A DNA stretch of 64,000 bases from Eledone cirrhosa (Eukaryota), in NCBI GenBank assembly GCA_964016885.1, contig OZ024743.1, positions 15,872,001 through 15,936,000 of the forward strand, in the 5' to 3' direction. Positions 30,673-58,547 of the stretch are shown one piece after another (position 1 is the first letter of the stretch; each line of letters begins with the position of its first letter). The position numbers and the translations under genes were made by a program. The notes beneath the pieces were generated by a model that saw only the letters and a program-made list of their open reading frames with translations, was not told the DNA's origin and did no database searches.

Positions 30673-33600
30673 GGGAAGAAGGGAAGAATAATAATAATAA
30701 ATGAATAAGGTAAGAAGACGCACGAGGTGGTAGAAGGTCATGAAATCGCTCCCGTAAGTTTTGAATTTTTAACATATCTAAATCATTTGTGAAATAACAA
30801 CTCTTAGTACAAATGCTACGTAAAGCATCCGGCTTGAGCCCCAAAAAAATTCGGGCCCAAAATATATTGTTATAAGGCTCAAATATTCAAATATTCAACT
30901 TTGTATTGTACATTGTATATTCAAAAAAGAAAATGGCTATAAATGGAAGAAGAAGACCCCCCACTCCTCTGTCTACACTATATAGAACAGCCAAACAACA
31001 CCAATCTCACCAACACCAGAAACTAGATACACCACCTACCCCATCACCTCTTTGTGTACACTAAACACAACAGCCAGATAACGGCAATTTCACCACCACC
31101 ACAACCAATCTCAACATAATAATGATAATAATAAATACTATTATTATTGTCCCAAGTTTTAACAAAAAGTTTAATTCCAACATTAAGGGAATTTATGTCA
31201 ACACATATACGCGACTAACCCCATAGATTCACCGAACGGACATCAGTAACGACAACGCCGCCCACCCATCATTACTACCACTACCCCATCACCGCCGCCA
31301 CCACTCCTTCATTGCTACCATCACTACAGTAATACGACCACATCACCACCACCACTACCATCATTACTACCACTATCCCATCACCGCCGCCACCACTCCT
31401 TCATTGCTACCACCGCTACAACACCATCACTACAGTAATACGATCACATCACCACCACCACTGCCTCAGTATCGACATCACCACCACCACTGTCTAAGTA
31501 TCGCTACCGCCGCTATTCTCTCCCATTGCTTCCTGCTAGTTGCTGCCACCACATTTTAGAATTCCTACTAAAAAAGAGGAAGGCATCAAAATATATAGAT
31601 AGACTCAAAAGAAAAAAGAAAAAACAAAGATCAAAACCAAAGCAGCACAGCAACAACAGCAAAAAAAGAGAAAAACAAACAGAGAAAAACAAAAACAAAA
31701 AAAAAACGTAAAGAAAATAAGAATGAAGAGAGAAACAAGCGGACGGACAGAGAAGAGAAGGAAAAAACTAAGTCAGACATTCGAACACTACATTACAATG
31801 AAACTTATGTTTATTCATTTTTGGGTTTTTTTCTGCCAGTGTGTTTGTTTGTTTATTTGTGTTCGTCTACAGCGTGGTGATAATGCCACACAAGAGCCAA
31901 GTGGAGCGGCGCAACCACCAGAGACGGTGAATCCACAGATGGTTATGTAACCATACATTCCCCAATCCTCGATAAGAGTGTTTAAATATGGAGCCTAAAC
32001 AGTTCGAATAACGGTGAAATGGAGACTAGAACGTCATGTGACAGACTCTCACCCAACAGGTGCTCCCTGGCTCAGCAGCAGGAACCTGGCTGTCAACCAA
32101 ATACTGCTGGTGTCGGAGGAAGAAGAAGAAGGAAGGGGACCAGAACCAACTGGACGAAAGAATTGAATAGAACTGTTATGCAATGTTACCTGAAAAGTAA
32201 CCCCACGGAGAGGGGCTATAGGAGACGGATGCATAACATCTGGAACGAGATTGGTCTATTTAAATTAGATGAAAAAAAATTGGCCGAGCAGGCTCGGGTA
32301 ATAAGAACTGATGGGTGGATAAGCGAGCTGGAACTGGAGGAACTGAGCAGAGAGATTAGCTTGGAGATGGAGGGTGGAGTATGCCAGGCAAACGAGCCAG
32401 TGGGAAATGAAGGTGAAGAGGTCGAGAGAACGGAGGAACCACCCGAAGCAGACAATGATCTGAATACTGAGATAAATAATACCTGGAACAGAGATACGGC
32501 CACTGAGGAGATGAATGCTGACGGGCTAGGACAAGATTCGGTTGACATCCTAAACTTAGTGGTAGATGAATTGAACAATGATAGTGGGAGACCTATGAAC
32601 CTAAGATTTGTAGACAGGAAAAAGTTAAAAGAAACAACAGCTAAGGTAAACTAAGTCATCCCATACCTTGAGGCGAGGAGCCTTCACCAGTGCAACAATA
32701 TCCTCAAAGCAACAGCAAATACGGTGAGGAAACTACTTGGTATAAAAGCGAGAGGAAACAACAGACAAGAAAGAGCAGAGCCTTGGTAGAAGAAACGACT
32801 GAGTGGTCAAATCAGGGAAATGAGAAATGACATTGGAAAGCTTGAGTCACTACTGAATGGGACACTAAAAAACATAGGCACTAAAAATAGACTGGAAATA
32901 AAGTACAAAACTAGGAGGAAAAAGCTAAATATTATCATAGAGGAACTGAAGCAACGCATTGTAGCAAAGAGTGCAAAAATCAGGCGATACGAGAACAGAG
33001 TCAGTCAGTATAAACAGAACCGCATGTTCGACAACAACCAGAAGATGCTGTTTGGACAGCTTGAGGGGAAAGAAAGAGGCAACGACTTGATCCCTGAGGC
33101 GGAACAAACTAAAACTTTCTGGAGAGGAATATGGGAGCAGGATGTTAGACATAATGACCAGGCAGGGTGGATTGAGACAGTACAGAGGGAGATCAGTGAG
33201 CAGGCACACCAACAAACTGATTTGAGTATCACAGTTGAAACTCTTAAGGGGCAGGCCAAAAAACTAACCAACTGGAAATCACCTGGCCCAGATGGTGTGC
33301 AGGGGTATTGGATTAAAAATATAACATCCCTCCACCCGAAACTGACAACCATGTTCAATGACTGCTTGATCTCAGGTGAGGTACCAGAGTGGTTGACAAA
33401 AGGTACCAATGTTCTGATAATGAAAGACCGAATCAAGGTTAATGAAGTTACCAACTATAGACCTATCACATGTCTGTCCGTAATGTGGAGACTGTTGACG
33501 AGCATTGTGTCTGAGGAAATCTACCATCACCTCCACACAAACAACTTGTTACCGGACGAACAGAAAGGATGCCGAAAGAAGTCACGTGGTACAAAGGACC

Positions 33601-34632
33601 AGTTACTTATTGATAAGATGGTAATGGGGAATTGCAGGAGGAGACACACTGATCTTGCCATGGGATGGATAGACTACAGAAAGGCATTTGACATGGTGCC
33701 TCATTCTTGGATCACCAAAAGCCTGGAGATCTTCAAGGTGGCAGATAACATCAGACAGTTGCTGGGCAAGAGTATGAGGTCCTGGGAAACAGAGTTGACA
33801 TCAGCTGGAGAATCCTTGGGAAGCGTAAAGATCAAGAGAGGTATCTTCCAGGGAGATAGCCTGTCCCCTTTGTTGTTTGTCCTTGCCCTGATGCCCCTGA
33901 CCAGTGTACTGCGAAAAGTGAGAGCAGGATGGGGGTTGGGAAAGGGAGGGCTTACCATCAATCACCTCCTCTTCATGGACGATCTTAAGCTCTTCGGGAA
34001 GAGTGAGAAGGAGTTGGATGTGCTTGTTGACACTGTCCGTATTTTCAGCAGTGATATATGTATGCAGTTTGGTATTAGTAAGTGTGGAGTCATTGTTGAT
34101 GAGGAGAGGTAGGTTGAGCAGAAGTAACGGAATCCAGATACCAACAGGTGAGATGATAGCCAGAGGCGGTGATAGAAAACGATCAAGTGAAGGTGCTGTG
34201 GGATTTTAGGATACAGACGGACAAGAAACTGGAACACAATAGACCTGACCTGGTGGTTGTGTACAAAGTAAAAAGATCGTGTCTGATTGTGGATGTGGCC
34301 TGCCCATTCGACACGAGAGTACAAGCGAAGGAGACGGAGAAAATTAACCGATACCAGGACTTAAAGTGGGAGGTAAAAAGGATTTGGAACTGCCATGAAG
34401 TCAAAGTGATCCCGATTGTCATAGGCGCACTGGGGACTATCTCCAAACGTTTCCAGGGATGGTTAAAGAAAATCGGCCCCTTCACGCTTTTTGGAACGCT
34501 TCAAAAGGCATGCTTGCTGGGAACAGCAAGAACCCTCCGATACGTCCTGAATATCTGAGGCTGCAAGTAGTGGCTTGATATTCATTCCAACGGACTTTCC
34601 AGTTATCTAACATCAATGACTGAGATTCAAGG
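30672..34632 (+). mobile_element. R4/Dong-type RLE non-LTR retrotransposon, copy 1 (stop codons; ~0.85-kb deletion at ~34158 removing the CCHC)
   Basis: [49 protein letters not shown]; (AAT)n on both sides. Confidence 0.92.
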
Positions 34633-35254
34633 AATAATAATAATAATAATAATAATAAAAGTGAGTAAAATCGAATTTGCAGCTGCGATTACCATCTTTT
34701 GAAAACAATCCTCAGAAGCTGGCGTATGTGATGATATCGATAAATTGATTAATTATATATTAGAATAATAAACAGACGTTAAAAGTGTGACAAATTGAAA
34801 ACGGTGGCCACAAAAGCCACCACAACAACGAAAATACAAACAGGTTATAGACGAACCTGGACCTGATCGATAGATATTATATAAATATCTTCGATTGGTT
34901 TCTGGGAATCCAAAATCAACACTCCAGGTTGCGCAATATACAAGTCAGTAATGTATCCCAAGATCGAACGTAGGCATCCAATTTCCAATGGGCGTTTCAT
35001 TCTGTTTACTAAGAGATTGGCATGATGACTCCACTTTCATGTACTGTAGTATCAGCTAAGGAAGTGGGGTCTGGAATTCATTCTCAAGAAAGGAGGAGGA
35101 TTCACATCTGGGATTTTGGCGGGCAAATTCAAAAGTGTGAACAAAGGAAACTATTCACAGCTTTCAAAATAAGCTCTCGTCTAGGTTATCAAACAAACAA
35201 AAAAAATTAATCAATCAATTAATTAATTAATTATAAAGACTAGGAGACAATAAT

Positions 35255-35430
35255 AATAATTGTTTCTACAGCAATTATCGTAGTGTATTACTGGTACTTT
35301 ATTTTATCAACCCCGTAAAGATGAAAGGCAAAGTTAACCTCGGCGGGATTGGAACTTAGACCATAAAGGACCGTAACTCTTTGCTGCAAAGCATGGTGTC
35401 CGACCCTCTACCAATACTGCCAATCAACCT
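35255..35430 (-). mobile_element. tRNA-derived SINE, diverged
   Basis: Family match. Confidence 0.85.
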
Positions 35431-36063
35431 AATGATGATAGTGAGTAAAATCGAAGTGTTAGCTGCAATTAGCATCTTCCGATTTACCAGTCAAGCATTA
35501 ACTTTTGATGTAGATTTTTTTCCTAACACAGGATTTGTGACATCATGCCAAAGTTAGAAACTATAAATCATGGTTGGAAAAAAGAGAGATATCACAGTTC
35601 TTTGTATATGTATATATGATATGTATGGTAGTATTTATGTATACATATAATGTCATGTGTTTCTGTAGAATAGATTAAGGAAATATTGTGTTCTTTTAAA
35701 TAGAGAACCAAAACAGATTATTATAAAGAAATTGCCAATACAGTTGATTGCACTTAATGAGATCTCATGTATGAAATAAGATTGGTCATCTTATTCTTGC
35801 CTGAATGGTAAGCAACTCTAACATATATAGTGTCTCTATGACTTATGCTAGAGCAGGCTTTATACCTTATGTAGGAAGAAACTGTGTTGCGAAATTATTT
35901 ATGATAATATCTGTGAGTGTGTTTATATATATATATATATATATATTCATTAGTTAAGCAAAACAAGACCACAAATTTCACAAGGAAGACGTTATTTAAA
36001 AAGTATCAACATAGTTGCAGTTTAATGTAAGGAATAAGGAGTGTAATGATAGTTTAATGTAGG

Positions 36064-36113
<50 letters not shown>

Positions 36114-36114
<1 letters not shown>

Positions 36115-39100
36115 GGGAAGAAGACGCACATGGTGGATAGAAGGTCGTGAAATCGCTCCCGTAAGTTTTGATTTTTTAACATATTTAAATCAATTAGTAC
36201 AAATGATACATAAAACATCCGGCTTGAGTCCCAAAAAATTTCGGATCCATAATATATTGTTATATCGCTCAAATATTCAATTTTGTATTATACAATTTAT
36301 ATTAAAAAAAAGAAAATGGTTATAAATGGAAGAAAACCCCCTCTGTCTACACTATATAGAACAGCCAAATAACAGCAATTTCACCAACATCAGAAACTAG
36401 ATACACCACCTACACCATCACCCCTCTGTGTACACTAAACACAACAGCCAGATAACGGCAATTTCACCACAACCACCACCAATTTCAGCATAATAATAAT
36501 AATTACTATTATTATTGCCTCAAGTTTTAGTTTTAACAAAATGTTTAATTCCAATATTAAGAAAAATATGTCAACACATATACGCGACTAATGATCATTT
36601 CACTAAAGAAAATTTCACGACCAACACCACCACCACTACCACGATGAAAACTCTGGTCAAGTCGACTCAAATTTCTACTCCAACTTCAACACCATCACTA
36701 CAGTAATACGACCACATCACCACCACCACTGCCTCATTATCGCTACCACCGCTATTCTCTCCCACTACCTCCTGATAGTTGCTGCTAGCACCGCCACCAC
36801 CACCACCACCACTGCCTCATTATCACTACCACCGCAATTCTCTCCCGCTTCCCCCTGCTACATTGTAGAATTCCCACTAAGTGGAAGGCATCAAAATATA
36901 TAAATAGACTGAATTGATGAACCGGTCAAAATAAAAAAATAAAAAAATAAACGTCAAGTTTTAGTTTTAACAAAATGTTTAATTCCAATATTAAGAAAAA
37001 TATGTCAACACATATACGCGACTAACGATAATTTCACTAAAGATAATTTCAGCACCAACACCACCACCACTACCACGATGAAAACTCTGGTCAAGTCGAC
37101 TCAAATTTCTACTCCAACTTCAACACCATCACTACAGTACTACGACCACATCACCACCACCACTGCCTCATTATCGCTACCGCGGCTATTCTCTCCCACA
37201 ACCTCCTGCTAGTTGCTGCTAGCACAGCACCGCCACCACCACCACCACCACTGCCTCATTATCACTACCGCCGCTATTATCTCCCACTAGCCCCTGCTAC
37301 ATTGTACAATTCTCACTAAAAGAGGAAGGCATCAAAATATATAAATAGACTGAATTAATGACCCGGTCAAATCAAAAAAACAAAAATCAAAATCAAAGCA
37401 GCACAGTAACAACGAAAAACGTAAAGAAAATAAGAATGAAGAGAAAAACAAACAGACGGACAGAGAAGGGAAGGGAAAAACTAAGTCAGACATTCAAACA
37501 CTACATTACAATGAAACTTATGCTTATTCATTTTTTGGGTTTTTTCTGTCTGTTTGTTTGTTTGTTTATTTGTGTTCGTCTACAGCGTGATAATGCCACA
37601 CAAAAGTCACGTGGAGTGACGAAACCACCGGAGACGATGAATTCACCAGTGGTTATGTAACCATACATTCGCCAATCCTCGATAAGAGTGTTTAAATGTC
37701 GAACCTACACAGTACGAATAACGGTGAAATGGAGACTAGAATGTCATGTGACAGACTTTCACCCAACAGGTGCTCCCTAGCTCAGGAGCAAGGACCTGGC
37801 TGTCAACCAAATACTGCTGGTGTCGGAGGAAGAAGAAGAAGGAAAGGGACCAGAAGCAACTGGACGAAAGAATTGAATAGAACTGTTATGCAATGTTACC
37901 TGAAGAGTAACCCCAAGGAGAGAGGCTATAGGAAAAGGATGCATAACATCTGGAACGAGATTGGTCTATTTAAATTAGATGAACAAAAATTGGCCGGGCA
38001 GGCTCGCGTAATAAGAACTAATGGGTGGATAAGCGAGCTGGAACTGGAGGAACTGAGCAGAGAGATTAGCTTAGAGATGGAGGGTGGAGTATGCCAGACA
38101 AACGAGCCAGTGGGAAATGAAGGTGAAGAGGTCGAGAGAACGGAGGAACCACCCGAAGCAGACAATGATCTGAATGCTGAGATAAATAGTACCTGGAACA
38201 GAGATACGGCCACTGAGGAGATGAATGCTGACGGGCTAGGACAAGATTTGGTTGATATCCTAAACTTAGTGGTAGATGAATTGAACAATGATAGTGGGAG
38301 ACCTATGAACCTAAGATTTGTAGACAGGAAAAAGTTAAAAGAAACAACAGCTAAGGTAAACAAAGTAATCCCATACCTTGAGGCGAGGAGCCTTCACCAG
38401 TGCAACAATATCCTCAAAGCAACAGCAAATACGGTGAGGAAACTACTTGGTATAAAAGCGAGAGGAAACAACAGACAAGAAAGAGCAGAGCCTTGGTGGA
38501 AAAACGACTGAGTGGTCAATTCAGGGAAATGAGAAATGACATTGGAAAGCTTGAGTCCCTACTGAATGGGACACTAAAAAACATAGGCACTAAAAATAGA
38601 CTGGAAATAAAGTACAAAACTAGGAGGAAAAAGCTAAATATTATCATAGAGGAACTGAAGCAACGCATTGTAGCAAAGAGTGCAAAAATCAGGCGATACG
38701 AGAACAGAGTCAGTCAGTATAGACAGAACCGCATGTTCGACAACAACCAGATGTTGTTGTTTGGACAGCTTGAAGGGAAAGAAAGAGGCAACGACTTGAT
38801 CCCTGAGGCGGAACAAACTGAAACATTCTGGAGAGGAATATGGGAGCAGGATGTTAAACATAATGACCAGGCAGTGTGGATTGAGACAGTACAGAAGGAG
38901 ATCAGTGAACAGGCACACCAACAAACTGATTTGAGTATCACAGTTGAAACTCTGAAGGGGCAGGCCAAAAAACTAACCAACTGGTAATCACCAGGCCCAG
39001 ATGGTGTGCAGGGGTATTAGATTAAAAATATAACATCCCTCCACCCGAAACTGACAACCATGTTCAATGACTGCTTGATGTCGGGTGAGGTACCAGAGTG

Positions 39101-41196
39101 GTTGACAAAAGGTACCACAGTTCTGATAATGAAATACCGAATCAAGGGTAATGATGTTACCAATTATAGACCTATCACATGTCTGTCCTTAATGTGGAAA
39201 CTGTTGACAAGCATTATGTCTGAGGAAATCTACCATCACCTCCACACAAACAACTTGTTACCGGACGAACAGAAAGGATGACGAAAGAAGTCACGTGGTA
39301 CAAAGGACCAGTTACTTATTGATAAGATGGTAATGAGGAATTGCAAGAGGAGACACACTGGTCTTGCCATGGGATGGATAGACTACAAAAAGGCATTTGA
39401 CATGGTGCCTCATCCTTGGATCACCAAAAGCCTGGAGATCTTCAAGGTGGCAGATAACATCAGACAGTTGTTGGGCAAAAGTATGAAGTCCTGGGAAACA
39501 GAGTTAACATCAACTGGAGAATCCTTTGTAAGCGTGAAGATCAAGAGAGGTATCTTCCAGGGAGATAGTCTGTCCCCTCTGTTTTTTGTCCTTGCCCTGA
39601 TGCCTCTGACCAGTGTACTGCGAAAAGTGAGAGCAGGATACAGGTTGGGAAAGGGAGGGCTTACCATCAATCACCTCCTCTTCATGGACGATCTTAAGCT
39701 CTTCGAGAAGAGTGAGGAGGTGTTGGATGTGCTTGTTGACACTGTCTGTATTTTCAGCAATGATATATGTATGCAATTTGGTATTAGTAAGTGTGGAGTC
39801 ATTGTGATGAGGAGGGGTAAGTTGAGCAGAAGTAACGGAATCCAGATACCAACAGGTGAGATGATAAAATAAATTGACTCTGAGGAAGGATACAAATATT
39901 TGGGCGTTCTGGAGGCTGATGACATCAAGAACAAAAAAATGAAGGAATTGATAAGAACTGAATACATTCGGAGAATAAGGAGCGTATTAAAGTCACATCT
40001 GAACAGTAGGAATGCCATAAGTGCAGTAAATTCCCGAGCTGTGTCTATTATTAGGTACAGTGCGGGAATTCTGAGATGGAATGTTGCTGAATAAATAGAA
40101 ATGGATAGGAAGACTAGGAAGCTATTGACTATCTACAATATGTTCCACAAGAGGAGTGATGTCGATAGACTCTACTTAAGGAGATCTGAGGGTGGAAGAG
40201 GTCTTATCAGCATAGAGGACTGTCTTCAGATGGAGAAAAACAACCTACACAAATATGTGACTGATAGTAAGGAGCCAATGCTCAGAACTGTACTGAAGGA
40301 GGGGACAATAGACCAGGGGATGTCCAAGGAGGAAATAACATCAAGGAGAAAGAGCAGCCTTCAGAAAAAATCCCTTCATAGTACCTTGTTTGAGAAAACT
40401 GAATTTAGAGATCCACAGACATGGAACTGGTTGAAAAGAGGAGACCTTAAAAAGGCTACAGAAGGAATGTTAATGGCTGCGCAGGAGCAGGCCCTCAAAA
40501 CGAAGTGGTTGAAACACCACATTTACAAGGAGGAGGCTAGCCCACTGTGCAGGATCTGTGGAGAGAGAGAGAGGAGACCGTGGCTCACATTGTATCCGAG
40601 TATAAACACCTAGCTCAGACTCACTATAAGGGCTGGAGACATGATGTGATGGGCAGGGTGATCCACTGGCACCTATGCAAAGTAAACAATTTACCACATT
40701 CTGAGAAGTGGTATGAGCATAAGCCAGAGGTGGTGATAGAAAATGATCAGGTGAAGGTGCTGTGGGATTTTAGGATACAGACGAACAAGAAACTGGAACA
40801 CAATAGACCTGACCTGGTGGTTTTCGACAAAGAAAAAAGATCGTGCCTGATTGTGGATGTAGCCTGCCCATTCGACACGAGAGGGCAAGGGAAGGAGAGG
40901 GAGAAAATTAACCGATACCAGGACTTAAAGTGGAAGGTAAAAAGGATTTGGAACTGCCATGAAGTCAAAGTGGTCCCGATTGTCATAGGCGCACTAGGTA
41001 CTATCTCAAAAAGTTTCCTGGGATGGTTAAAGAAAATTGGCCCCTTCACGCTTTTTGGAACGCTTCAAAAGGCATGCTTACTGGGAACAGCAAGAACCCT
41101 CCGATACGTCCTGAATATCTGAGGTTGCAAGTAGTGGCTTGATATTCATTTCAACAAACTTTCCAGTTAATTAACATCAATGACTGAGACTCGAAG
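36114..41196 (+). mobile_element. R4/Dong-type element, copy 2 (full length; stops and frameshifts; ~430-bp tandem duplication in leader at 36520-37375)
   Basis: RT, CRICG..H..(C) and RLE motifs across ORFs 37696-41122; (AAT)n flanks. Confidence 0.92.
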
Positions 41197-41209
41197 AACA
41201 ATAATAATA

Positions 41210-41350: not shown

Positions 41351-41357
41351 TGGAAAC

Positions 41358-41459: not shown

Positions 41460-44400
41460 TTACAATAAGGTCGAGTAAAATGTAGTGGGGGGCAGCACTT
41501 CTCTCTCCACCCTCACCCTCCTTTCCAGGTGAAACTTGAAGAGGTTGATGAGGGATTGGCCGAAGAGAAAAGTATCTATCTTTAGTCCTTTCAACCTGGT
41601 CCACCATATAATCTCTTTCGCAACTGCCACCAGACAGAGGAAAATTTCCTGCTCTTCCTGACCTAAGGAAGGTGGCGGCTCGATCTTCACTATGGACTCG
41701 GCCGATAGCCGGATTCGTTCCACACGCGACAGTAGCTGTTCGACATAACTCCACAAGTCAGTAATGCACGGACATTGGACAAGTGCGTGCAGAACGGTTT
41801 CGCCGTTCTGTGCGTATCTTGGGCAGGTCCGTCTGACAGCACTTCCGTGCCTGTAGAGTTTATCCCGAACCGGCAGTGCCCCCCGGTAGCACTGCCAAGC
41901 GAGGGATTTCTGGAAATTGTTCATCGTCCCCGGCTCAAAAGTCCTCCGGTACAGACTGGTCAGTTCGACTTCGTCGAGGCCCAAAGCTTCTCCGAGTGCG
42001 TCATCGCACTTGCCCACCACTAATCCTCTATAGAACTCGAGAGTGGAAGTTCCACTGATCGCATTGCCCGCTTGGTAGAGGGCAGTGAGTGCCTGGAAAC
42101 ATTCCAGGTGCCAGTCTCGGTCTCTTCTTGACCCAGGACTGCAGCTCAGTCAAAGAAATGAGCTGCGGAAAGGCCCGTCTGATAAACGGCGACCACACTT
42201 GTTCACCATTGAGGCAGAATATCTGGAGATGTCGCAGCCTCAACGCATGTCTGCGCATCATTAGCCACGCCATGCCCAGCCCTCCGCGTAGAGGGTGCTG
42301 GCAGCAGATGGACCGCCTCACCAACGGAACTTGTCCCCTCCACAAGAATTTGAAGAGGAGCCATTCCAACTTGACGAGGCGCGGACGGGGGCAAGGCACG
42401 ACGATTAGGTGGTAGTAGATGATGGACGCGATATACGTATTCCCCACCTCCGCGGCGCGACCTTTCAATGATAGCTTCCTCCCAGCCCATTTTTGGGTGA
42501 GACTGGCTACTCTGCTCGTTACCTCGTCCCAATTTTTTTCCACCTGGAGATCTGGTCCGAACCAAACCCCGAGCAACTTTACCGGTCCGTCCGTCCAGCG
42601 CCCCACGAAGCTGTTGGACGGCATGGGCTTGTCTCTCCAGGTTCCGAGCTGCAAGCCCACCGACTTTTCCGGGTTAAGTTTGGCTCCTGTCAACCTTTCA
42701 TATTCCGTCAATAAGGTGCCGACCACCTCGATTTCTGAGGTGTTCGACACCATCACGGTGATGTCGTCCGCATAAGCCGACACCGCCTTTCCACGTCCCG
42801 GTTCGAGCGGGATGCACTGCAACAGCTCCAGCTTCCGCAGTAAAGGCTCGAGAGTCAATACGTACAGAAGGGAAGAGAGAGAGCACCCTTGACGGACCGA
42901 TCGGGAGGGCCGAAATGGTTCCGAGAGGTGGCCATTAACCTTGACCACCGAGCGTGTGCCGCTGTGCATCGCAACGATCCAGCTTCTAAAGACAGGGCCG
43001 AAGCCAGCTGCTTTGAGGACAAACTCCAGGTACCGATGGTCGACCCTATCGAATGCTTTCGATTGATCTAAATTGATCAGTGCCCCACCGAAGCCAGGTT
43101 TACACCCTACCCTCTCTATGATGTATCGCATGAGGTGGAGATTGTCGTGTATGGACCTGGCTGGGATTGCGCAAGTTTGCGCCTCCCCAACCAAATCCTC
43201 GACGACAAGCGCCAATCTCTTTGCTAACACCTTGGCCAAAATCTTAAACTCTGTGTTGAGCAGAATTATGGGCTTGAAGTTGTCTAATGTATCCCTCTTG
43301 TTCTCGTCTTTCCTTATCAGCGTCACCACTCCCCTGCTCACAGAACAGGGAATACTCCCATTCTGCTGCCAGTTGCAGTAGAGTGCTTCGAGGAGTTCGG
43401 AGAACAAGTCAGGCATATTTACGTAAAGCTCGTAGGGCAGGCGATCCAAACCGGGTGACTTGCGCCTCATGCAGCCGACAAGGGCGTCCTGAATTTCGGC
43501 TGAAGTAATCGGCCTTTCGCAGCGCTCAGCGTCGACCGTCGAGATGCGCGGCAAGCCGTCAAGGTAGGGACTGAAATCCGCTACTCTCTCTGACTCGCCA
43601 CTCTCCCTGAACAACCGAGCAAAGTGCTGGCGAAAGGCCTTACACACCGCTTGGAATCGCTTATCTCGTGTCCGTCTCGGTCCGCCAAAGACCGAATTGT
43701 GGTTTTATTACCACGCTGCGCCTCCGCCACGCGGGCCCATCGAACAGCTTTAGTTCCCTCGTTTCTCAGCGTACGCGCCTTAGCTCTGACAATGCAACCT
43801 TTGTGTTTGGTATTGAAGAAATGGTCTAATGCCATTCTCGCCGCTAGCACGTCAGTTGCGATGCCAGTACAAATAGCCTCGTCTAACTTATCTACCAGCT
43901 CCCCCTCCTTTCTATTTTTCTCTGACGCTAGTTCTTTGCTGAACTCTATCGAAGTTACTCTAATCTCTCTTTTGAGAGCACCCCACCATCTGTTGTTGAT
44001 GATCCCTCCTGTCAACTTTTGCTTAACTAAATTGTTGACTCGGTCCCTGTAAGCCTTACGTGCCGGAAATGACATGTTCAGCTTCCAGTAACCTGGTCCT
44101 AACCTACGCGTTTTATTTAGGTCGACCGTAAAGATCACAAATTTGTGATCTGAATAGGCGACCGTTTTAAAAAGTGGACAGCCCACACTATTTCTATCTA
44201 TTTTCCTAATGAAGATCCTGTCTATATACGATCTAGATGACCCCATTCGGTTGGTCCATGTCCATACTGGCACATTGGGGAAATCTAGTCGATACCTGTC
44301 AGACAGTTGGAACTGGCTGAGTAGGTGCTTGAGGCTTTTGCACCCCCCGCTCCTATCGGCTACTCCCACACATCCCAGCGTGCGTCTAAGATGCCATTCA

Positions 44401-46776: not shown

Positions 46777-47959
46777 AATTTTCTTTTGGTGGGGAAGCGA
46801 TTTTTTTCGAAATTTTAAAAAATAAATCTGAATATTCGGGCTTAAAGCCCGAATATTGAGAGGTATCCCGCTCTTTAAATCAAGATGTGTACCTTAAGTT
46901 TCGTTAACGACAAGAAAATACAAAAAAAGACACTTTAAAACAACTTAAAGTTACGAACCTTTTCCCCCGCAGATTTGTACTGTCTTCACACATGTGCGGC
47001 CATAATAATAATAATAATAATAATAGGGAAGATACGCACATGGTGGGTAAGGTATTATGGAATCGCTCTCGTAAGTTTTTGATTTTTTACATATTTAAAA
47101 CAATTGTGATAGAATAATTCTTATTACAAATGAAACTCAGGAAGTCGCAACGCATCACATTACGGCATAGGACTCCAATATGTAATATTTAATTTTGTAC
47201 CAGAAATCTTATAGTCAGAAAAGAAAATGGCTAGAAAATAACAGCCAAATAACTTCACCACCAGCACCACCACCGCCGCCGCCACCATCACCATTACCAC
47301 AAAAAATCTAGCCAAATACAGACCAACACCATCCCTATGGCGCTGCTGTCCCATCACCACCGCCGCCGCTGCATCGTGACTACCGCCACTGTTCCCTCAC
47401 TGCTTGAGAGAGGGTGGTGATGCCGCTACACATGAAGGGGTGCGAGGAAGGTATCAAAAGATATAAATAGACTGGGTTAGTGACTCGGTCAAACAGCTAA
47501 CAACAACAACAACAACACCAAAATAATTATGTTGTAGTATCTCTAAACTCTCTCAAAATGTTTAGTTTAAACGATGTCAAATCTAAACTATAATATAATA
47601 ATTGTTTCTACGTTAGGCACAAGGCCAAATATAACCCAGTGCATTACTGGTACTTTATTTTATCGACCCCGTAAGGATGAAAGGCAAAATTAACCTCGGC
47701 GGGATTTGAACTCAGAATGGCAAGGGCCGTAACTCTATACGTCAAAGCATGGCGTCCGACTCTCTACCAATACCGCTGTAGTGGCTGAGATGGTCGCTTG
47801 GCAACTAGCAGTTGCCTCCCCTTAACAACCCTTCAGAGAGCGGAGGCAAAAATATTGACGTTGTAGGAAATTTACTAAATTATCGCATATAATAAAATGA
47901 TTGTTACATTTGATTGTTCATTTATTTATTCAACAAAGAGAAACATCCCTTTCATTTAT

Positions 47960-49334: not shown

Positions 49335-52300
49335 TGAACTCTGGGAAAAGCGACCGAACCGCCATCTTTTCGTATACGACCTGCGGTCAAAAAAATTTTT
49401 CCTTGTCGATACTGGCGCGTCACTGAGTATTTGGCCAGTCAGTTATCTCAAAAAAAGCCCAGCTGAATCAAATATAAATCTACGAGCAGTCAACCACACG
49501 GCCATTCGAACGTACGGGCAAATTTCGCTTCCTCTTCGGTTAAAAAATTTGCGGCGTGATTTGAAGTGGAAGTTTACTATCGCCGACTTGCCATACGCCA
49601 TTTTGGGAGCGGATTTTCTCCACCATTTTTCCTTGTTGGTGGACATTCGCAGACAACGCCTTTTTAGATGCTGAAACAAGCCTTTCTTTCGAGGGTTCAG
49701 AGCCGGATGTCGCCACTGTCACCCCTTCCTTTTTCTTGGCTGAAGTGGGCCACCAGTATCAAAGCCTGTTACATTCATTCCCTCAGTTGACGCAGGGAAA
49801 GTTACGAATAACTAGCCCGGATCATGCGATTGAACACTTCATATCCACTACAGGTCCACCTGTTTTCTCACGTCCTCGAAGATTATCTACAGAGAAGTTG
49901 AAAGCTGCACGTCTTGAATTCGACCACATGCTGGAATTGGGAACAATTCGGCGCTCCACAAGTCCTTGGGCATCGCCTCTACATATGGTACCTAGATCTT
50001 CTGGTGATTGGAGACCGACGGGTGACTACCGACGCTTAAACGCGATTACTGTGCCTGACCGTTATCCAATCCCGCATTTGCAGGATTTTGCATCGTCATT
50101 GCAGGGTTGCAGAATCTTTTCTAAGCTTGATTTGATCCGAGCTTATAATCAAATTCCGGTTAACAAGGAGGATATCCCAAAGACTGCTATTGCCACTCCT
50201 TTCGGATTATTCGAGTTCCTCACTATGCCTTTCGGCCTTAGAAATGCTGCAAGTACCTTCCAACGATTTATGGATGATATTACTCGGGGCCTGGATTTTG
50301 TGTACACGCATATCGATGACGTGTTGATTGCTAGTTCTTCCCCCTCATCAGCATTCAAAGCATCTGGATCTCTTATTTCGTCGTTTACAGAGATATAAGG
50401 TTCATATTAATGCTTCCAAGTTTGTTTTCGGCTCGACTTCACTAACATGTTTAGGCCATCTGATTGACGCCGATGGAATTCGACCTCTTCCTGAGAAGGT
50501 TAAGGCAGTATCGGGTTTGCCTCCGCCAAGTTCACTGCGACAATTGCGTCAATTCCTGGGCCTTGTAAATTTTTATAGGGGATTCGTACCTGGTTGTTCC
50601 AAATTGCTGTTCTCGTTGACAGAGATTTTTAAGGGTTGCCGGCGTAAGAATATGGACATTTCCTTAAATAAAACGCAGCTTGATGATTTAAAAAAAGTGA
50701 AAAAGGCGTTAGCGAACGCGTCTTTGCTCGCCCACCCAGTACCCAACGCCGAGCTATCGCTCTGTGTTGATGCTTCGGATAGCGCCGTGGGCGCAGTCTT
50801 ACAGCAGAAGTGTGATGGGGTACAGCAACCACTCGAGTTCTTTTCGAGGAAGTTAAAGCCTGCCGAAACTCGCTATAGCACCTTTGGAAGGGAGCTATTA
50901 GCAATTTATTTATCAGTGAAACATTTTGCTCATGTACTTGAAGGTAGAACATTCACCATTTTCACTGATCATAAACCTTTGACGTTTGCTCTTCGAACTA
51001 AAGCAGACAAATACTCGCCCAGATAGACGAGACATCTGGACTTCATCTCACAGTTCACGAACGACATTCAACATATTCCGGGTTCTTTGAATACAGCGGC
51101 CGATGCGCTGTCTCGCCTGCCGATCGCATCGATTTCGTCTTCCGAGGAGATAGATTTACATCGAATGGCAGCTGCCCAACCCACTCTCGAATCGTTGGAT
51201 GTTACATCCGATCTCAACTGCTGACGGACAAATACTGTGTGAGGTTTCGTTGGACTCACCACGACCTCTGGTCCCAGTGGAACATCGACGAACTGCGTTT
51301 CTCACTTTACATGGCATTTCTCACCTAGGAGTATCAGCCTCAGTAAAACTCATAACAGCCAGATTTTTCTGGCCTGATATGAGACGTGACATTGCTGCTT
51401 GGTGTCGTTCCTGTGTCGCTTGCCAACAAGCGAAAGTTCATAGACATGTTAAGGCTCCTCTCGGAACCTTCACCTGCCCCGATGCAAGATTTCGTCACAT
51501 TCATGTGGACATCGTCGGCCCGTGGCCGGTTAGTCGTGGTTTTTCGTATCTTTTGACGATTGTTGACCGTTTTTCGCGTTGGCCTGAAGCCATCCCTATA
51601 ACAGATATCACCGCTGAAACCACAGCCCGTACTCTCGTATCTTCATGGATCGCTCGTTTCGGTGTACCAACCACCATATCAACGGATCGTGGTCGTCAAT
51701 TTGAGTCTAACCTCTTCCGATAACTAACCCAAATCCTGGGGGCTACTCGAATAAGAACCACGCCTTACCACCCATTCTCAAACGGAATGGTGGAAAGATT
51801 CCACAGGCAGCTCAAAGCCTCCTTAAGGACTTCCGTTGGAGCGAGTACCTACCTATTGTGTTGTTGGGTATTCGGTCGACGGTAAAGGTGGACCTTGGGT
51901 TCTCCTCTGCCGAATTAGTTTATGGTACTCCTCTGGCGTTACCGGAGCAAATGCTGGCCCCTTTTGACCTGACTTCGCAGGACCCCGCTTCCTACGTGTC
52001 CCGGCTTCACTCTTATTTCAAGGATCTACCACCGATGGGCACTAGGAAGCAGACTGTAAAAACTGCCGTCCCAAGGGATATTGCCTTGTGGACACATGTG
52101 TTCGTTAGAGACGACGCCGTGCGACCCCCTCTTCAACGGCCGTACTCTGGACCCTATCGTGTGCTTGCTCGCACAGACAAACATTTCACACTGGACATTC
52201 GGGGTTCCAGGGAAACGGTTTCCGTTGATCGTCTCAAACGAGCAAACCTGGACAATGACACAATGACACTTGAAACTCAAATGCCCCCTTCTTTTTCTTT

Positions 52301-52412
52301 GCCACATAGGCCTATTTCTCCCCCCCCCCCCCCACCATCAACACACAAAACTACGACCCGTTCTGGGCGAAGGGTGCATTGGCCCCGTAAGCTACGCAGT
52401 AATATAAACTGA
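49300..52412 (+). pseudogene. pol: Gypsy Pol (PR, RT, RNase H, IN), disrupted
   Basis: FLVDTGAS; [24 protein letters not shown]; VDASD, RELLA, TDHKPL; H..H..C..C, VDIVGP, TDRGRQF, GPY. Confidence 0.9.
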
Positions 52413-53500
52413 ATTGTATTTTTTTTTTTTCTTCCAATTGTTTTTGCTGTATATTGCATTTTGTTACTCTTTGATTTTTGACTGCCTACGGCAGTGTCAA
52501 TATATTATATTTTTCGTAACATTACGACTGTTGTCAATTCTGACACAGTCCATTTTTTTAGTGCATTTTTATAACTATGTTACATATGGCATTTTTATTG
52601 CCTAGCAAAACATTTTTTTCTTGTTTATCGCATTTGGGGCCCCTTTATTGCGAAGAGTGTTATCTTTTCATGCATTTTGCATCTTTGACTGTACGTTTTT
52701 TTTTTTTTGTGTTAATGCTTGCCGACATGAATCTATTTATTTTTTTTAATTTGTTGATACATTCTTCTACATTTTGTAAACTACCTTCTCTTCATTGTTA
52801 ACGATTTTTCGACAAAAAATCTGCTCCGAGGTGAATGTAGTGGCTGAGATGGTCGCTTGGCAACTAGCAGTTGCCTCCCCTTAACAACCCTTCAGAGAGC
52901 GGAGGCAAAAATACATCCGGACACAGACGCAGGTTCACTCACTCTCTTTGGACAGCGGACATGAACAGACGTGGAAAGATTCGCTCCTCAAAATATTGAC
53001 GTTGTAGGAAATTTACTAAATTATCGCATTTAATAAAATGATTGTTAGATTTGATTGTTCATTTATTTATTCAACAAAGAGAAACATCCCTTTCCTTTAC
53101 TGCCAATCCACCGCTCTAAACTATAATATAATAATAATAATTGTTTTATAGTCAGAAAACAAAATGGCTAGAAAACAACCACCAAATAACCACCCCGCCA
53201 CTATCACCATCACCACTACCAACAAAATCTAGCCAAATACAGACCGGCACCATCTCTATAGTACTGCTGCCCCGTCGCCACTGTATCATCGCTACCGTCA
53301 CTATTCCCTCACTACTTAAGAGAGGGGTGGTGGTGCCGCTACACATGAAAAGAAGGTATCAAAAGATATAAATAGACTGGGTTAGTGACTTGGTCAAACA
53401 GCTAACAACAACACCAAAATAATTATGTTGTTATATCTCTAAACTCTCTCAAAATGTTTAGTTTAAACGATGTCAAATCTAAACTATAATATAATAATAA

Positions 53501-53560
53501 TAAGTGCTTCTGCTTTTGGCACGGGGCCAGCAATTGTCCCGGTGTGTTGCTGGTGCTTTA
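53501..53560 (-). mobile_element. SINE 3' fragment with 8 A-to-G changes on the plus strand
   Basis: Aligned by hand to 13564-13624: 11 differences in 60 nt, 8 of them A>G. Confidence 0.85.
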
Positions 53561-56500
53561 TGAAAAAATTATAGTCGAAAAATTATAGAACAGAACACAG
53601 ACAGAAGCAGACGCAACAACGGACACGGGTTTCAAAAGTTTTGAACACAACAATCCCTACATCCCTTAGCAGCAGCAGCAGTAACAACAACACTAGTTAC
53701 TGGGGTTACTGGCCTTGTAAAACGAAAAACGCAAAGGAGAAAAAACAGACAAAAAATGGAAAGAAAAACTAAGTCAGACATTCAAACATTACAATGAAAC
53801 TTGTGTTTGTTTTTTTAGGTTTTTATCAATTTGTTTGTTTGTTTATTTATGTTCGTCTCCAGCGTGATGGTGCCACGCTAAAATCACCGAGGGCGGTGGG
53901 GTGTGATGAAATCACCGGTAGTTATGTAACCATACATTCACCAAACCACGATATGAGTGCTTAAATGTCGAACCTAAACAGTTCGAATAACGGTGAAGTG
54001 GAGACTGGAATGTCATGTGACAGACTCTCACTCAGCAGGTGCTCCCTGGCCATGGAGCAGGGACCTGGCTGTCATCCAAATACTGCTGGTGTTGGAGGAA
54101 GAGGAAGAAGGAAAGGGACCAGAACCATCTGGACGAAATAATTGAATAGAGCTGTTATGCATTGTTACCTGAAGAGTAACCCCAAGGAAAAAGGCTATAG
54201 GAAACGGATGCATAACATCTGGAACGAGATTGGTCTATTTAAATTAGATGAACAAAAATTGGCCGGACAGGCTCGCGTAATAAGAACTAATGGGTGGATA
54301 AGCGAGCTGGAACTGGAGGAACTGAGCAGAGAGATTAGGTTGGAAATGGAGAGTGGAGTATGCCAGGCAAACGAGCCAGTGGGAAATGAAGGTGAAGAGG
54401 TTGAGAGAATGGAGGAACCATCCGAAGCAGACAATGATCTGAATGCTGAAATAAATAATACCTGGAACAAAGATACGGACATTGAGGAAATGAATGCTGA
54501 TGGGCTAGGACAAAATTTGGTTGATATCCTAAACTTAGTGGTAGATGAAATGAACAATGATAGTGGGAAACCTATGAACCTAAGATTTGTAGAGAGGAAA
54601 AAGTTAAAAGAAACAACAGCTAAGGTAAACAAAGTCATCCCATACCTTGAGGCGAGGAGCCTTCACCAGTGCAACAATATCCTCAAAGCAACAGCAAATG
54701 CGGTGAGGAAATTACTTGGCATAAAAGCGAGAGGAAACAACAACAAGAAAGATCAGAACCTTGGTGGAAGGAAGGACTGAATGGTCAAATCAGGGAAATG
54801 AGAAATGACATTGGAAAGCTTGAGTCCCTATTGAATGGGACGCAAAAAAACATAGACACTAACAATAGACTGGAAATAAAGTACAAAACTAGGAGGAAAA
54901 AGCTAAATATTATCATAGAGGAACTGAAGCAACGCATTGTAGCAAAGAGTGCAAAAATTAGGCGATACGAGAGCAGAGTCAGTCAGTATAGACACAACCC
55001 CATGTTTTACAACAACCAGAAGATGTTGTTTGGACAGCTTGAGGGAAAGAAAGAGGCAACGATTGATCCCTGAGGCGGAACAAACTAAGACATTCTGGAG
55101 AGGAATATGGGAGCAGGATGTTAAACATAACGACCAGGCAGTGTGGATTGAGACAGTACAAAAGGAGATCAGTGAACAGGCACACCAACAAACTGATTTG
55201 AGTATTACAGTTGAAACTCTGAAGGGGCAGGCCAAAAAACTAACCAACTGGAAATCACCAGGCCCAGATGGTGTGCAGGGGTATTGGATTAAAAATATAA
55301 CATCCCTCCACCCGAAACTGACAACCATGTTAAATGACTGCTTGATATCAGGTGAGGTACCAGAGTGGTTGACAAAAGGTACCACAGTTCTGGTAATGAA
55401 AGACCGAATCAAGGGTAATAATGTCTGTCCGTAATGGGGAAACTGTTAACAAGCATTGTGTATGAGGAAATCTACCATCTGCTCCACACAAACAACTTGT
55501 TACCGGACGAACAGAAAGGATGCCGAAAGAAGTCACGTGGTACAAAGGACCAGTTACTTATTGATAAGATGGTAATGAGGAATTGCAAGAGGAGACACAC
55601 TGGTCTTGCCATGGGATGGATAGACTACAAAAAGGCATTTGACATAGTGCCTCATTCTTGGATCACCAAAATCCTAGAGATCTTCAAGGTGGCAGATAAC
55701 ATCAGACAGTTGTTGGGCAAAAGTATCAAGTCCTGGAAAACAGAGTTAACATCGGCTGGAGAATCCTTGGGAGGCGTGAAGATCAAGATAGGGATCTGCC
55801 AGGGAGATAGTCTGTCCCCTCTGTTGTTTGTCCTTGCCCTGATGCCCATTGACCATTATACTGTGATAAATGAGAGCAGGATACAAGTTGGGAATGAGAG
55901 AGCTTACCATCAATCATCTCCTCTTCATGGACGATCTTAAGCTCTTCGGGAAGAGTGAGAAGCAGTTGGATGTGCTTGTTGACACTGTCCGTATTTTCAG
56001 CAATGATATATGTATGCAATTTGGTATTAGTAAGTGTTGAGTCCTTGTGATGAAGAGCGGTAAATTGAGCAGAAGTAACGGAATCCAGGTACCAACAGGT
56101 GAGATGATAATGGAAATTGACACTGAAGAAAGATACAAATATTTAGGTGTTCTGGAGGCTGATGAAATCAAGAACAAAAAAATGAAGGAATTGATAAGAT
56201 CTGAATACATTCAACGAGTAAGGAGCGTATTAAAATCACATCTGAACAGTAGGAATGCCATAAGTCCAGTAAATTCCCGAAGCAGTGTCTATTATTAGGT
56301 ACAGTGCGGAATTCTGAGATGGAATGTTGCTGAACAAAAAGAAATAGATAGGAAGCTATTGACTATCTACATGCTCCACAAGAGGAGTGATGTCGATAGA
56401 CTCTACTTAAGGAGATCTCAAGGTGGAAGAGGTCTTATCAGCATAGCAGACTGTGTTCAGATGGAGAAAAACAACCTACACAAATACGTGACTGATAGTA

Positions 56501-57428
56501 GGGAGCCAATGCTCAGAATTTTACTGAAGGAGAGGACAATAGACCAGGGGATGTCCTAGGAGGAAATAACAACAAGGAGAAAGAGCAATCTTCATGAAAA
56601 ATCCCTTCATAGTACCTTCTTTGAGAAAACTGAATTTAGAGATCCACAGACATGGAACTGGTTGAGAAGAGGAGACCTCAAAAAGGCTACAGGAGGAATG
56701 CTAATGGCTGCGCAAGAGCAGGCCCTCAAAACGAAGTGGTTGAAGCACCATATCTACAAGGAGGAGGCTAGCCCACTGTGCAGGATCTGTGGAGAGAGAG
56801 AGGAGACTGTGGCTCACATTGTATCCGAGTGTAAACACCTAGCCCAGACTCACTATAAAGGCTGGAGAAATGATGTGATGGGCAGGGTGATCCACTAGCA
56901 CCTATGCAAAGTAAACAATTTACCACATTCTGAGAAGTGGTATGAGCATAAGCCAGAGGCGGTGATAGAAAACGATCAGGTGACGGTGCTGTGGGATTTT
57001 AGGATACAGACGGACAAGAAACTGGAACACAATAGACCTGACCTGGTGGTTTTGGACAAGGAAAAAAGATCGTGCCTGATTGTGGATGTGGCCTGCCCAT
57101 TCGACACGAGAGTGCAAGAGAAGGAGAGGGAGAAAATTTACCGATACCAGGACTTAAAGTGGGAGGTAAAAAGGATTTGAAACTGCCATGAAGTCAAAGT
57201 GGTCCCGATTGTCATAGGCGCACTAGGTACTATCTCAAAGAGTTTCCAGGGACGGTTAAAGAAAACTGGCCCCGCCCCGCTTTTTGAAACACTTCAAAAG
57301 GCATGCTTGCTGGGAACAGCAAGAACCCTCCGATACGTCCTGAATATCTGAGGTTGCAAGTAGTGGCTTGATATTCATTTCAACAAACTTTCCAGTTAAA
57401 TAACATCAATGACTGAGGCTCAAAGAAC

Positions 57429-57477
<49 letters not shown>

Positions 57478-58547
57478 TAGGGAAGAAGACGCACGAGGTG
57501 ACGGAGGTCATGAAATCGCTCCCGTAAGTTTTGAATTTTTAACATATTTAAATCATTTGTGAAATAACAACTCTTAGTACAAATGCTACGTAAAGCACCC
57601 GGCTTGAGCCCCAAAAAATTCGGACACAAAATATATTGTTATAAGGCTCAAATATTCAAATATTCAACTTTGTATTGTACACTGTATATCCCCCCCAAAA
57701 AATGGCTATAAATGGAAGAAGAAGAAGAACCCCCCCCCCTCCTCTCCTCTAGCTACACTATATAGGACAGCTAAACTCACCAACACCAGAAACTAGATAC
57801 ACCACCCACCCCATCATCTGTGTACACTAAACACAACAGCATTTTCACCTTCACCGCCACCGCTCACTACGGCCATCATTACCACCACTATCCCATCACC
57901 GCCGCCACCACCCCTTGACTCCTTCACTGCTGCTGCCACCGCTACAGCACCATCACTACAGTAATACGGTCGCATCACCGCCACCACTGCCTCGGTATCG
58001 ACATCACCACCACCACTGTCTCAGTATCGCCAACGCCGCCAGTCTCTGCTGGCTGCCACTTCCACATTATAGAATTCCTACTACTAACAAAGAGGAAGGC
58101 ATCAAAATATATAGATAGACTCAAAAGAAAAAAGAAAAAACAAACAACAAAACCAAAGCAGCACAGCAACAACAGCAAAAAACGAGAAAAACAAACAGAG
58201 AAAAACAAAAACAAAAAAAGAAACCCCAAAAACGTAAAGAAAATAAGAATGAAGAGAGAAGCAAGCGGACGGACAGAGAAGAGGGGGGAAAAAGTAAAAC
58301 TTAAAAAACAAAAACTAAGTCAGACATTCGAATACTACATTACAATGAAACTTATGCTTATTCATTTTTGGGGCCCTTTCTGCCCGTGTGTTTGTTTGTT
58401 TATGTGTGTTCGTATACAGCGTGGTGATAATGCCACACAAGGGCCAAGTGGGATGGCGGATCCACAGATGGCTATGTAAACATACATTCGCCAATCCTCG
58501 ATAAGAGTGTTTAAATATCGAACATAAACAGTTCGAATAACGGTGAA

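What the first reader, a model, noticed from the sequence alone, without database searches (positions are those of the whole stretch)
30754..58419. R4/Dong family appears to retain a spliceosomal intron in its 5' leader
Seen: all four copies have GTAAGT ~45 nt after the conserved 5' start motif (30754, 36161, 47071, 57524). All four also have a T-rich tract ending in CAG (31872, 37585, 53862, 58419) ~130-150 nt before the ORF start. The interval is 1119, 1425, 6792 and 896 nt and behaves like an intron: (ACC)n expansions, tandem duplications, SINE and Gypsy insertions, upstream ATGs. Both flanks stay conserved. Known: retrotransposition normally purges introns; intron retention is characteristic of PLEs and rare in animal non-LTR elements. 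Inference: a spliced RNA is translated while unspliced nuclear RNA is the template, implying trans-mobilisation. That would also expose the template to ADAR.
Basis: partly seen in the sequence, partly recalled or inferred. Interest (0 to 1): 0.8.

Follow-up and report, generated by a model that had tools for sequence, protein, structure and literature searches.

The report
Rarely spliced leader in Dong retrotransposons
These jumping genes carry a splice-start signal near their front end, and four genome copies have deletions running exactly from it to an AG, likely from spliced RNA; no copy was found cut to the proposed end point, so the stretch is likely a seldom-spliced leader, as in human L1, not a routinely removed intron.

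Summary
The coordinates are right. All four R4/Dong-type LINE copies have GTAAGT about 45 nt from the 5' end and a T-rich tract ending in CAG. They are one family (over 2,000 genomic matches to each site), so four copies are not four tests.

The donor looks functional. Seven long deletions start at it, against one at four control positions. Four end exactly after an AG (a cryptic site at +185, or an inserted SINE), as in human L1 SpIREs. That is about 0.2% of 5'-intact copies.

No copy joins the donor to the proposed CAG (0 of roughly 1,400, five searches). No run on record as RNA was available. Splicing there would leave 3-4 upstream AUGs. A 34%-identical sister family keeps the donor without this acceptor. 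A predicted hairpin may mask the tract; covariation was not shown. ADAR-like A-to-G clusters lie inside the interval.

Best reading: an L1-like leader, mostly unspliced. A regulated intron that selects the template stays open (about 20%). The scan had already noted the leader swap, LINE donors and ADAR scars in this genome; my look-ups showed no note of spliced copies.

The parts
57479..57523 (+). 5' head (putative exon 1, 45 nt) of copy 4, directly after (TAA)n; homologues 30708-30753, 36114-36160, 47025-47070
   Evidence: same head on dispersed copies
57524..57529 (+). GTAAGT 5' splice site of copy 4, inside a conserved block running from about -10 to +60
   Evidence: used in genomic junction copies
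30754..30759 (+). GTAAGT donor, copy 1
36161..36166 (+). GTAAGT donor, copy 2
47071..47076 (+). GTAAGT donor, copy 3 (oldest subfamily)
36311..36312 (+). Cryptic AG acceptor (also 30928-30929 in copy 1); the homologous AG is the 3' end of the precise deletions in L078 and L087. Absent in copy 4 and in 39 of 51 young leaders scored
47600..47776 (+). Sense SINE in copy 3's leader; its T-rich...TAG (47615-47616) is the type of acceptor joined to the donor in L161 and L167
47777..53103 (+). LTR retrotransposon (RT, RNase H, integrase; broken frames) inserted in copy 3's leader; second LTR starts at 52836; right end approximate
53505..53630 (+). A-to-G-rich stretch in copy 3's leader: an altered SINE head shared with L081 and L396, plus a largely private cluster at 53610-53629; likely ADAR scars
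37446..37469 (+). Purine-rich arm predicted to pair with the T-tract (37540-37563) in copy 2; homologues 31733-31755 and 58259-58281
   Evidence: prediction; covariation not shown
58314..58362 (+). Conserved distal leader block (-105 to -58 from the CAG); homologues start at 31767, 37480, 53768
58363..58419 (+). T-rich tract and CAG of copy 4 (candidate 3' splice site; AG-free zone median 94 nt in 93 copies); homologues end at 31872, 37585, 53862. No use observed
   Evidence: negative searches
58420..58514 (+). Leader after the CAG, with 3-4 upstream AUGs and a start-stop whose stop codon begins 38 nt before the ancestral start in all four copies
58515..61343 (+). Single ORF of copy 4 (RT, CCHC, restriction-like endonuclease), with a 596-nt deletion at 58916 absent from all 30 loci L001-L030; intact relatives encode 1130-1132 aa

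Best explanation
This is a high-copy, (TAA)n-targeting R4/Dong-type LINE whose conserved 5' end holds a consensus splice donor that is likely used only rarely, so the unspliced RNA likely serves as both message and template, as in human L1. Shown: the donor sits in a block of about 70 nt that is conserved across subfamilies and shared with a 34%-identical sister family; four full-length genomic copies lack exactly the stretch from the donor to a nearer AG; no copy was found lacking the stretch to the distal CAG. Inferred: those four copies are reverse transcripts of spliced RNA (SpIRE-like dead ends). Inferred: the block is kept as an internal promoter and/or a U1 binding site that helps transcription, with splicing as a side effect. 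Predicted: the distal tract is largely masked by a hairpin with an upstream purine-rich arm, or serves translation or RNP assembly rather than splicing. The variable middle tolerates insertions because it is untranslated leader, which needs no intron to explain it.
For: Long deletions start at donor +1 in 7 events (all 63 hits and all 23 viewed) against 1 event at four control positions: -1 (59 of 59 viewed), +2 (23 of 23), +3 (26 of 26), +4 (30 of 32). Binomial p = 8e-5, or 0.007 counting only the 4 canonical events. Four of 7 end right after an AG (p = 0.004). Breakpoint-blind gap searches gave 2 precise junctions in 3 hits and 2 in 4 hits. L078, L087 and L077 each lie closest to an unspliced relative rather than to each other. 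One donor with several acceptors, and rarity (4 of about 2,150), match L1 SpIREs (131 of 6,609; PMC5860796). Distal junction: 0; 0 of the 14 hits with C after the head; 0 of the 12 hits with C before the second exon. About 64% of classified 5'-intact copies are the window's family (80 of 125), so about 1,400 were at risk. The sister family keeps the donor without this acceptor. Splicing to the CAG would leave 3-4 upstream AUGs.
Against: The distal site looks like a real 3' splice site: invariant CAG, T-rich tract and a 94-nt AG-free zone across five subfamilies 74-85% alike, and the tract is present in the oldest subfamilies, where the pairing arm is weak (3-13 of 24 pairs). The donor lies 45-47 nt from the start, as in Penelope (46 bp), where most transcripts are spliced yet copies keep the intron (PMC2377424). 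Hairpin covariation is not significant (cross-pairing p = 0.34; covariation score reached by 22 of 500 shuffles and percent paired by 56 of 500; no consensus stem), and copies 3 and 4 fold no better than shuffles. Only one of the four canonical junction copies (L167) belongs to the window's family. Three of the seven events do not end at an AG in the nearest relatives. Pattern counts are lower bounds, and one search was strand-skewed (13 vs 46), so searches can miss copies. Promoter and U1 function were not tested.
Confidence: 0.58

Rival explanations
1. Regulated true intron with template selection. The donor is spliced to the distal CAG to make the message, but the distal part of the intron (conserved block plus hairpin) would be needed for the RNA to be taken as template, much as retroviruses place the packaging signal inside an intron (analogy recalled). 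Fully spliced RNA would then never be copied, while RNA spliced to nearer AGs would.
For: Explains both 0 distal junctions and the nearer-AG junctions: L167, the one canonical junction copy of this family, keeps the distal block and CAG. Strong conservation of the block, tract, CAG and AG-free zone. Donor position as in Penelope.
Against: No spliced form was observed anywhere. The spliced leader would still carry 3-4 upstream AUGs. The sister family lacks the block and the acceptor yet has 1,099 copies of its own landmark under the same head. It needs a selection mechanism for which I have no direct evidence.
Confidence: 0.2
2. One reading: a Penelope-like intron, efficiently spliced, with unspliced nuclear RNA mobilised in trans and spliced RNA excluded in general.
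For: Intron-like anatomy and near-complete retention; ADAR-like clusters within the interval; Penelope and Chlamys-3 precedents.
Against: Spliced RNAs were retrotransposed (4 canonical copies). If the CAG were the main acceptor, leakage should give more distal than cryptic junctions; 0 distal were found. ADAR acts on nuclear RNA in either model (general knowledge), so the scars do not separate cis from trans; family-wide A>G versus T>C bias is not significant (p = 0.08).
Confidence: 0.08
3. The distal acceptor is an exon trap. Host or upstream-element transcripts would splice into it and so express the ORF from outside promoters, independent of the element's own donor.
For: The acceptor-like site is specific to the window's family and conserved; many copies sit in tandem trains.
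Against: No copy with foreign sequence joined at the CAG among 40 of 99 hits viewed and 13 of 13 hits. Junctions ending in AG would escape both patterns, so this is weak.
Confidence: 0.09
4. No splicing at all: the motifs are chance words in an AT-rich leader and the junction copies are ordinary deletions.
For: GTAAGT and YAG are short; three of seven donor-anchored deletions do not end at AG.
Against: Breakpoints concentrate at +1 and after AG; the events are independent; L078 and L087 show no microhomology at the join, unlike control deletions L232 and L275.
Confidence: 0.05

Closest known systems
Human L1 5' UTR splice donor and SpIREs (Larson et al. 2018, PMC5860796; passages and first part of the Discussion read)
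   Same: One conserved donor near the 5' end, several acceptors, rare retrotransposed spliced copies, most copies unspliced; donor embedded in conserved 5' sequence (a RUNX3 site in L1).
   Different: Here a single-ORF, restriction-like-endonuclease LINE in an invertebrate; a full GTAAGT at +45 rather than +98; about 0.2% rather than about 2%; acceptors include an inserted SINE; a strong-looking conserved distal acceptor is never seen used; no promoter test.
Penelope (D. virilis) and Chlamys-3_cRei 5' UTR introns (PMC2377424, PMC8557442; passages read)
   Same: Donor about 46 nt after the start, inside the presumed internal promoter; interval retained in genomic copies.
   Different: Those are PLEs with RT-PCR or Iso-Seq proof of splicing (75 and 398 nt introns). 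Here the element is a LINE, the interval is 0.65-1.4 kb without large insertions, and splicing to the proposed acceptor is unobserved.
R4/Dong clade non-LTR retrotransposons (PMC7998251 passages; Dong-R4 in octopus repeat surveys PMC13282606, PMC8967140 passages)
   Same: Single ORF with RT and C-terminal restriction-like endonuclease, (TAA)n target; recently active and abundant, as reported for Octopus vulgaris Dong-R4.
   Different: The passages read describe no leader splice sites or spliced copies. Here two lineages 34% identical share and repeatedly exchange one 5' leader.

Membership tests
R4/Dong clade | Single long ORF with RT, no APE domain | tested here: met
   1130 and 1132 aa ORFs; Pfam RVT_1 and no APE family; best solved relatives are R2 proteins
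R4/Dong clade | C-terminal CCHC and restriction-like endonuclease motifs | tested here: met
   Motifs read in the translation (motif pattern recalled); zf-RVT hit below its cut-off
R4/Dong clade | (TAA)n target | tested here: met
   (TAA)n or (GAA)n-extended (TAA)n at the 5' junctions and (TAA)n after the 3' ends
R4/Dong clade | N-terminal Myb/SANT-like domain | not tested
   No profile comparison run; Pfam shows none
R4/Dong clade | RT phylogeny groups with named R4/Dong elements | not testable with these tools
   The homologues carry no element names; the clade label rests on architecture and target
SpIRE-forming LINE leader (L1-like) | Full-length copies with a deletion exactly from GT donor to AG | tested here: met
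   L078, L087, L161, L167
SpIRE-forming LINE leader (L1-like) | One donor, several acceptors, small share of full-length copies | tested here: met
   +185 AAG and SINE TAG; 4 of about 2,150
SpIRE-forming LINE leader (L1-like) | Donor lies in sequence needed for promoter activity | not testable with these tools
   Conserved block -10 to +60 is suggestive only
SpIRE-forming LINE leader (L1-like) | Spliced copies are dead ends | tested here: inconclusive
   Each junction event was found once (L076/L077 are neighbours in one array); numbers are small
Penelope-type retained 5' UTR intron | Donor about 46 nt after the start; interval retained in copies | tested here: met
Penelope-type retained 5' UTR intron | Splicing between the two sites shown in RNA | tested here: inconclusive
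   No run on record as RNA; contigs of a run of unknown kind show no joint
Penelope-type retained 5' UTR intron | Host element is a PLE (GIY-YIG endonuclease) | tested here: not met
   No GIY-YIG family in Pfam; R2-like RT
Known structured RNA (e.g. HDV-like ribozyme) in the leader | Rfam match or unusually stable 5' fold | tested here: not met
   0 Rfam matches at E up to 1; first 222 nt z = 0.54

The most novel reading that the evidence does not exclude
An animal LINE with a regulated spliceosomal intron that works like a retroviral leader: spliced RNA is the message, and a hairpin-bearing block at the intron's 3' end both gates splicing and licenses only intron-bearing RNA for reverse transcription. 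This would explain why RNAs spliced to nearer AGs were copied into the genome while the fully spliced form was never found.
Probability: 0.2. Interest if true: 0.8.

Novelty: new variant of a known kind. Interest (0 to 1): 0.47.

Why it matters
Spliced retrotransposed copies were described for human L1; my searches listed none for an invertebrate or for a restriction-endonuclease LINE. These copies are fossil evidence that the spliceosome acts on R4/Dong RNA in the germline, which implies Pol II-type processing for a clade whose transcription is little studied. They also set up a clean test. A donor at Penelope's position, a conserved acceptor never seen used, and intact young copies let one ask whether a LINE can pick its template by an intron-borne signal. 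If it can, the cis-preference picture of LINEs would need an exception, and the result would bear on why Penelope-like elements keep introns. If it cannot, this is L1-type collateral splicing in a distant clade.

Tried and rejected
RNA evidence. No RNA holder was listed. Run X4 (87.8 Mb of contigs, kind not on record; RNA is only my guess from its size) has contigs that bridge the donor (57479-57657, depth 156; 57479-57585, depth 17) and the CAG (58344-58698, depth 145) unspliced, and no donor-CAG joint. Contigs drop rare forms, 12 loose ends and 110 pieces were not shown, and one loose end carries upstream (TAA)n, so I treat this as inconclusive. I ran no host-gene control for X4. The higher summed depth in mid-leader is partly an artefact of overlapping short contigs and is not used.

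Relatives in other species. The metagenome scan found no relative. Cross-species conservation of the sites is therefore untested.

Ribozyme or 5' hairpin over the donor: no Rfam match, no unusual fold.

L082, L098 and L076/L077 as canonical splice products: not counted. Their 3' ends are not after an AG in the nearest relatives. L076/L077 resumes 5 nt before the +185 AG; a changed or edited A in the source RNA is possible but untested.

The sister family's TAAG as a second distal acceptor: no precise junction; it looks like that family's own start inside leader TAA repeats.

Tandem duplication as the origin of the four copies: rejected; they fall in different subfamilies of a dispersed family.

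Family-wide ADAR bias: not significant (717 A>G vs 384 T>C against base counts, p = 0.08).

A host splice-site model was not built (no annotated host introns at hand).

Literature: nine answered searches listed no paper on introns or spliced copies in R4/Dong leaders; most were read as listings only. PMC9977147 passages held nothing relevant. Repbase reports and supplements were not seen and may describe such leaders.
Full report
Observation. The four donors and four CAG sites are at the stated places, with intervals of 1119, 1425, 6792 and 896 nt. Copy 3's interval holds a SINE and a broken LTR element. The window lies on a 379-Mb contig of a 3.0-Gb animal genome. An octopod host is likely, but I take that from earlier scan notes and the literature on Dong-R4 in octopuses, not from a test.

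The element. Intact relatives encode one 1130-1132 aa ORF with RT, closest among solved structures to R2 proteins. CCHC and endonuclease motifs are visible in the translation (motifs recalled). Copies sit in (TAA)n, the Dong target named in PMC7998251 (passages). The family is young and dispersed: all 40 scored hits were 100% identical over 291 nt. There are 2,038 donor-motif and 2,153 acceptor-motif matches. The window's copies belong to different subfamilies, so their agreement reflects descent.

What is conserved. Across nine subfamily clusters the invariant block runs from about -10 to +60 around the donor and then decays. That sample is enriched for donor mutants, which removes a few invariant marks at the donor itself. 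At the other end, five clusters 74-85% alike keep a block at -105 to -58, the last 30 nt with the CAG, and an AG-free zone of median 94 nt in 93 copies. Only the middle varies freely. This fits an intron, but it also fits an untranslated leader with functional ends.

The donor is used. I listed copies whose sequence departs from the family right at the donor and viewed all 63 and all 23 with G but not GT. Sixteen of these 86 were chance matches outside the element and most others were point changes. Eight copies (seven events) had long deletions starting at +1. L078 and L087 resume just after an AG about 185 nt downstream; L161 and L167 resume just after the T-rich...TAG of a SINE inserted in the leader (that SINE position reads TAG in 15 of 34 and 18 of 48 aligned SINE copies). 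All four have the ORF through to or near its end. L076/L077, L082 and L098 do not end at an AG in their nearest relatives and are not counted as canonical. Control positions gave one long deletion at -1, with microhomology (59 of 59 viewed), and none at +2, +3 (26 of 26) or +4 (30 of 32). Binomial p is 8e-5 for 7 of 8 and 0.007 for 4 of 5; 4 of 7 ending at AG has p = 0.004. Gap searches blind to the breakpoint agree: 2 of 3 hits at the +185 landmark and 2 of 4 at the SINE landmark are these junctions. L078, L087 and L077 are independent. I infer reverse transcription of spliced RNA, the process that makes L1 SpIREs (131 of 6,609; PMC5860796, passages and first part of the Discussion). The share here is about 4 in 2,150.

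The proposed acceptor was never seen used. Direct and gapped junction patterns gave 0. None of the 14 hits with C after the head was a junction, nor any of the 12 hits with C before the second exon (40 of those 99 hits viewed in all), nor 13 of 13 hits changed at -2. Of 145 sampled 5' ends, 80 were the window's family, 45 the sister family and 20 unclassified. So about 1,400 copies were at risk and the upper bound is about 0.2%, if the searches were complete; counts are lower bounds and one search was strand-skewed. RNA data could not settle the point: no run was on record as RNA, and the contig result is inconclusive (see Tried and rejected). Splicing to the CAG would remove 7-15 ATGs (80 in copy 3) but leave 3-4, plus one or two in the head.

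A sister family. A second lineage, 34% identical in protein, with 1,099 landmark matches, carries the same head and donor but a different leader end without the T-tract-CAG. On a tree of the shared 236 nt (137 rows; chance match L086 and duplicates left out) its label needs 10 changes, 8 forced by well-supported branches, so the leader moved between the lineages repeatedly. Insertion into the leader's own TAA repeats is a likely route (inferred). The donor is thus maintained without the proposed acceptor. An earlier scan note reported this swap (e1-9586198).

Possible masking. In copy 2 the tract pairs with an arm about 115-140 nt before the CAG in a 24-bp stem (z = -2.2). Across 23 aligned copies 83% of cells pair against 46-59% for slid controls, but the structure was drawn from copy 2 and double changes do not exceed shuffles. 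Cross-subfamily pairing is not specific (p = 0.34), RNAalifold finds no consensus stem, and the oldest subfamilies have little arm. Masking is plausible for younger subfamilies and unproven.

ADAR. L314 has nine A-to-G changes between +4 and +95 against one other change; the +4 change was the search criterion. It was the only flagged piece in that scan, and the overall strand bias is not significant. Copy 3 has an A-to-G-rich SINE head shared with L081 and L396, so a likely edited RNA founded a small lineage, plus a largely private cluster at 53610-53629. They do not separate cis from trans mobilisation.

Mechanism. Shown: donor-to-AG deletion copies; retention in nearly all others; no distal junction found; donor shared across lineages. 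Inferred: Pol II transcription from an internal promoter in the conserved 5' block; U1 recognition with rare splicing to the nearest open AG; unspliced RNA translated and copied in cis; distal tract masked or serving another role (0.58). Main rival: a regulated intron whose 3' part licenses the template (0.20). It survives because L167, the one canonical junction copy of this family, keeps that part.

Comparison and novelty. It works like the L1 5' UTR with its SpIREs. It resembles Penelope and Chlamys-3 in donor position (PMC2377424, PMC8557442; passages) but is not a PLE and lacks proof of splicing between the two sites. My literature searches listed nothing on R4/Dong leader splicing; Repbase and supplements were not seen. 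Earlier scan notes describe donor motifs in other LINEs of this genome; none of the 11 notes shown mentions spliced genomic copies. Verdict: new variant of a known kind, interest 0.47.

Noticed in passing
L220-L228, L344-L373 (sister family) versus window copies: Two R4/Dong lineages 34% identical in protein share one 5' head and leader and have exchanged it repeatedly (at least 8 forced label changes on the leader tree). Already noted by the scan (e1-9586198).
   Followed up: yes
L314 (G000:C1:36954443-36957460, minus strand), +4 to +95 from the donor: Young copy with nine clustered A-to-G changes, likely an ADAR-edited RNA written into DNA. The region has no local hairpin, so the duplex partner is probably another RNA or an inverted copy.
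   Followed up: partly
window 53505-53565; L081, L396: An A-to-G-rich SINE head inside the leader is shared by several copies, so a likely edited RNA became a source element.
   Followed up: partly
window 46958-46893 (minus strand): The neighbouring minus-strand LINE (RT at 42028-43704) has a 66-nt GT...AG segment about 50 nt from its 5' end, matching the 67-71 nt segment that earlier notes report for Tx1-type LINEs in this genome.
   Followed up: partly
window 58474, 37655, 31945, 53924: A one-codon start-stop whose stop begins 38 nt before the ancestral ORF start is present in all four copies; it may act in reinitiation.
   Followed up: no
window 58515-58517 and 31986-31988; L108, L110: The ancestral start codon reads ATA in the youngest subfamily, so its ORF starts 11 codons later; these copies are still intact and multiplying.
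   Followed up: partly
window about 57695-57705; L001-L060: The +185 cryptic AG is missing in 39 of 51 young leaders scored; loss of a harmful acceptor is possible but untested.
   Followed up: no
window 57638-57969 homologues in L010, L032, L038, L040, L047, L051, L054, L056: A 332-nt leader segment is duplicated or triplicated in many young copies.
   Followed up: no
window 57506-57511: GGTCAT at +28 to +33 from the first A of the head fits the Drosophila DPE consensus (recalled) in the youngest subfamily only; spacing differs in the others.
   Followed up: no
window 58916 and 34158: Copy 4 has a 596-nt ORF deletion absent from 30 close relatives; copy 1 has a large deletion at 34158.
   Followed up: yes
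L275 (G000:C4:195326290-195326836): A head joined by microhomology to what looks like the sister family's 3' end, present twice in tandem: a very short derivative.
   Followed up: no
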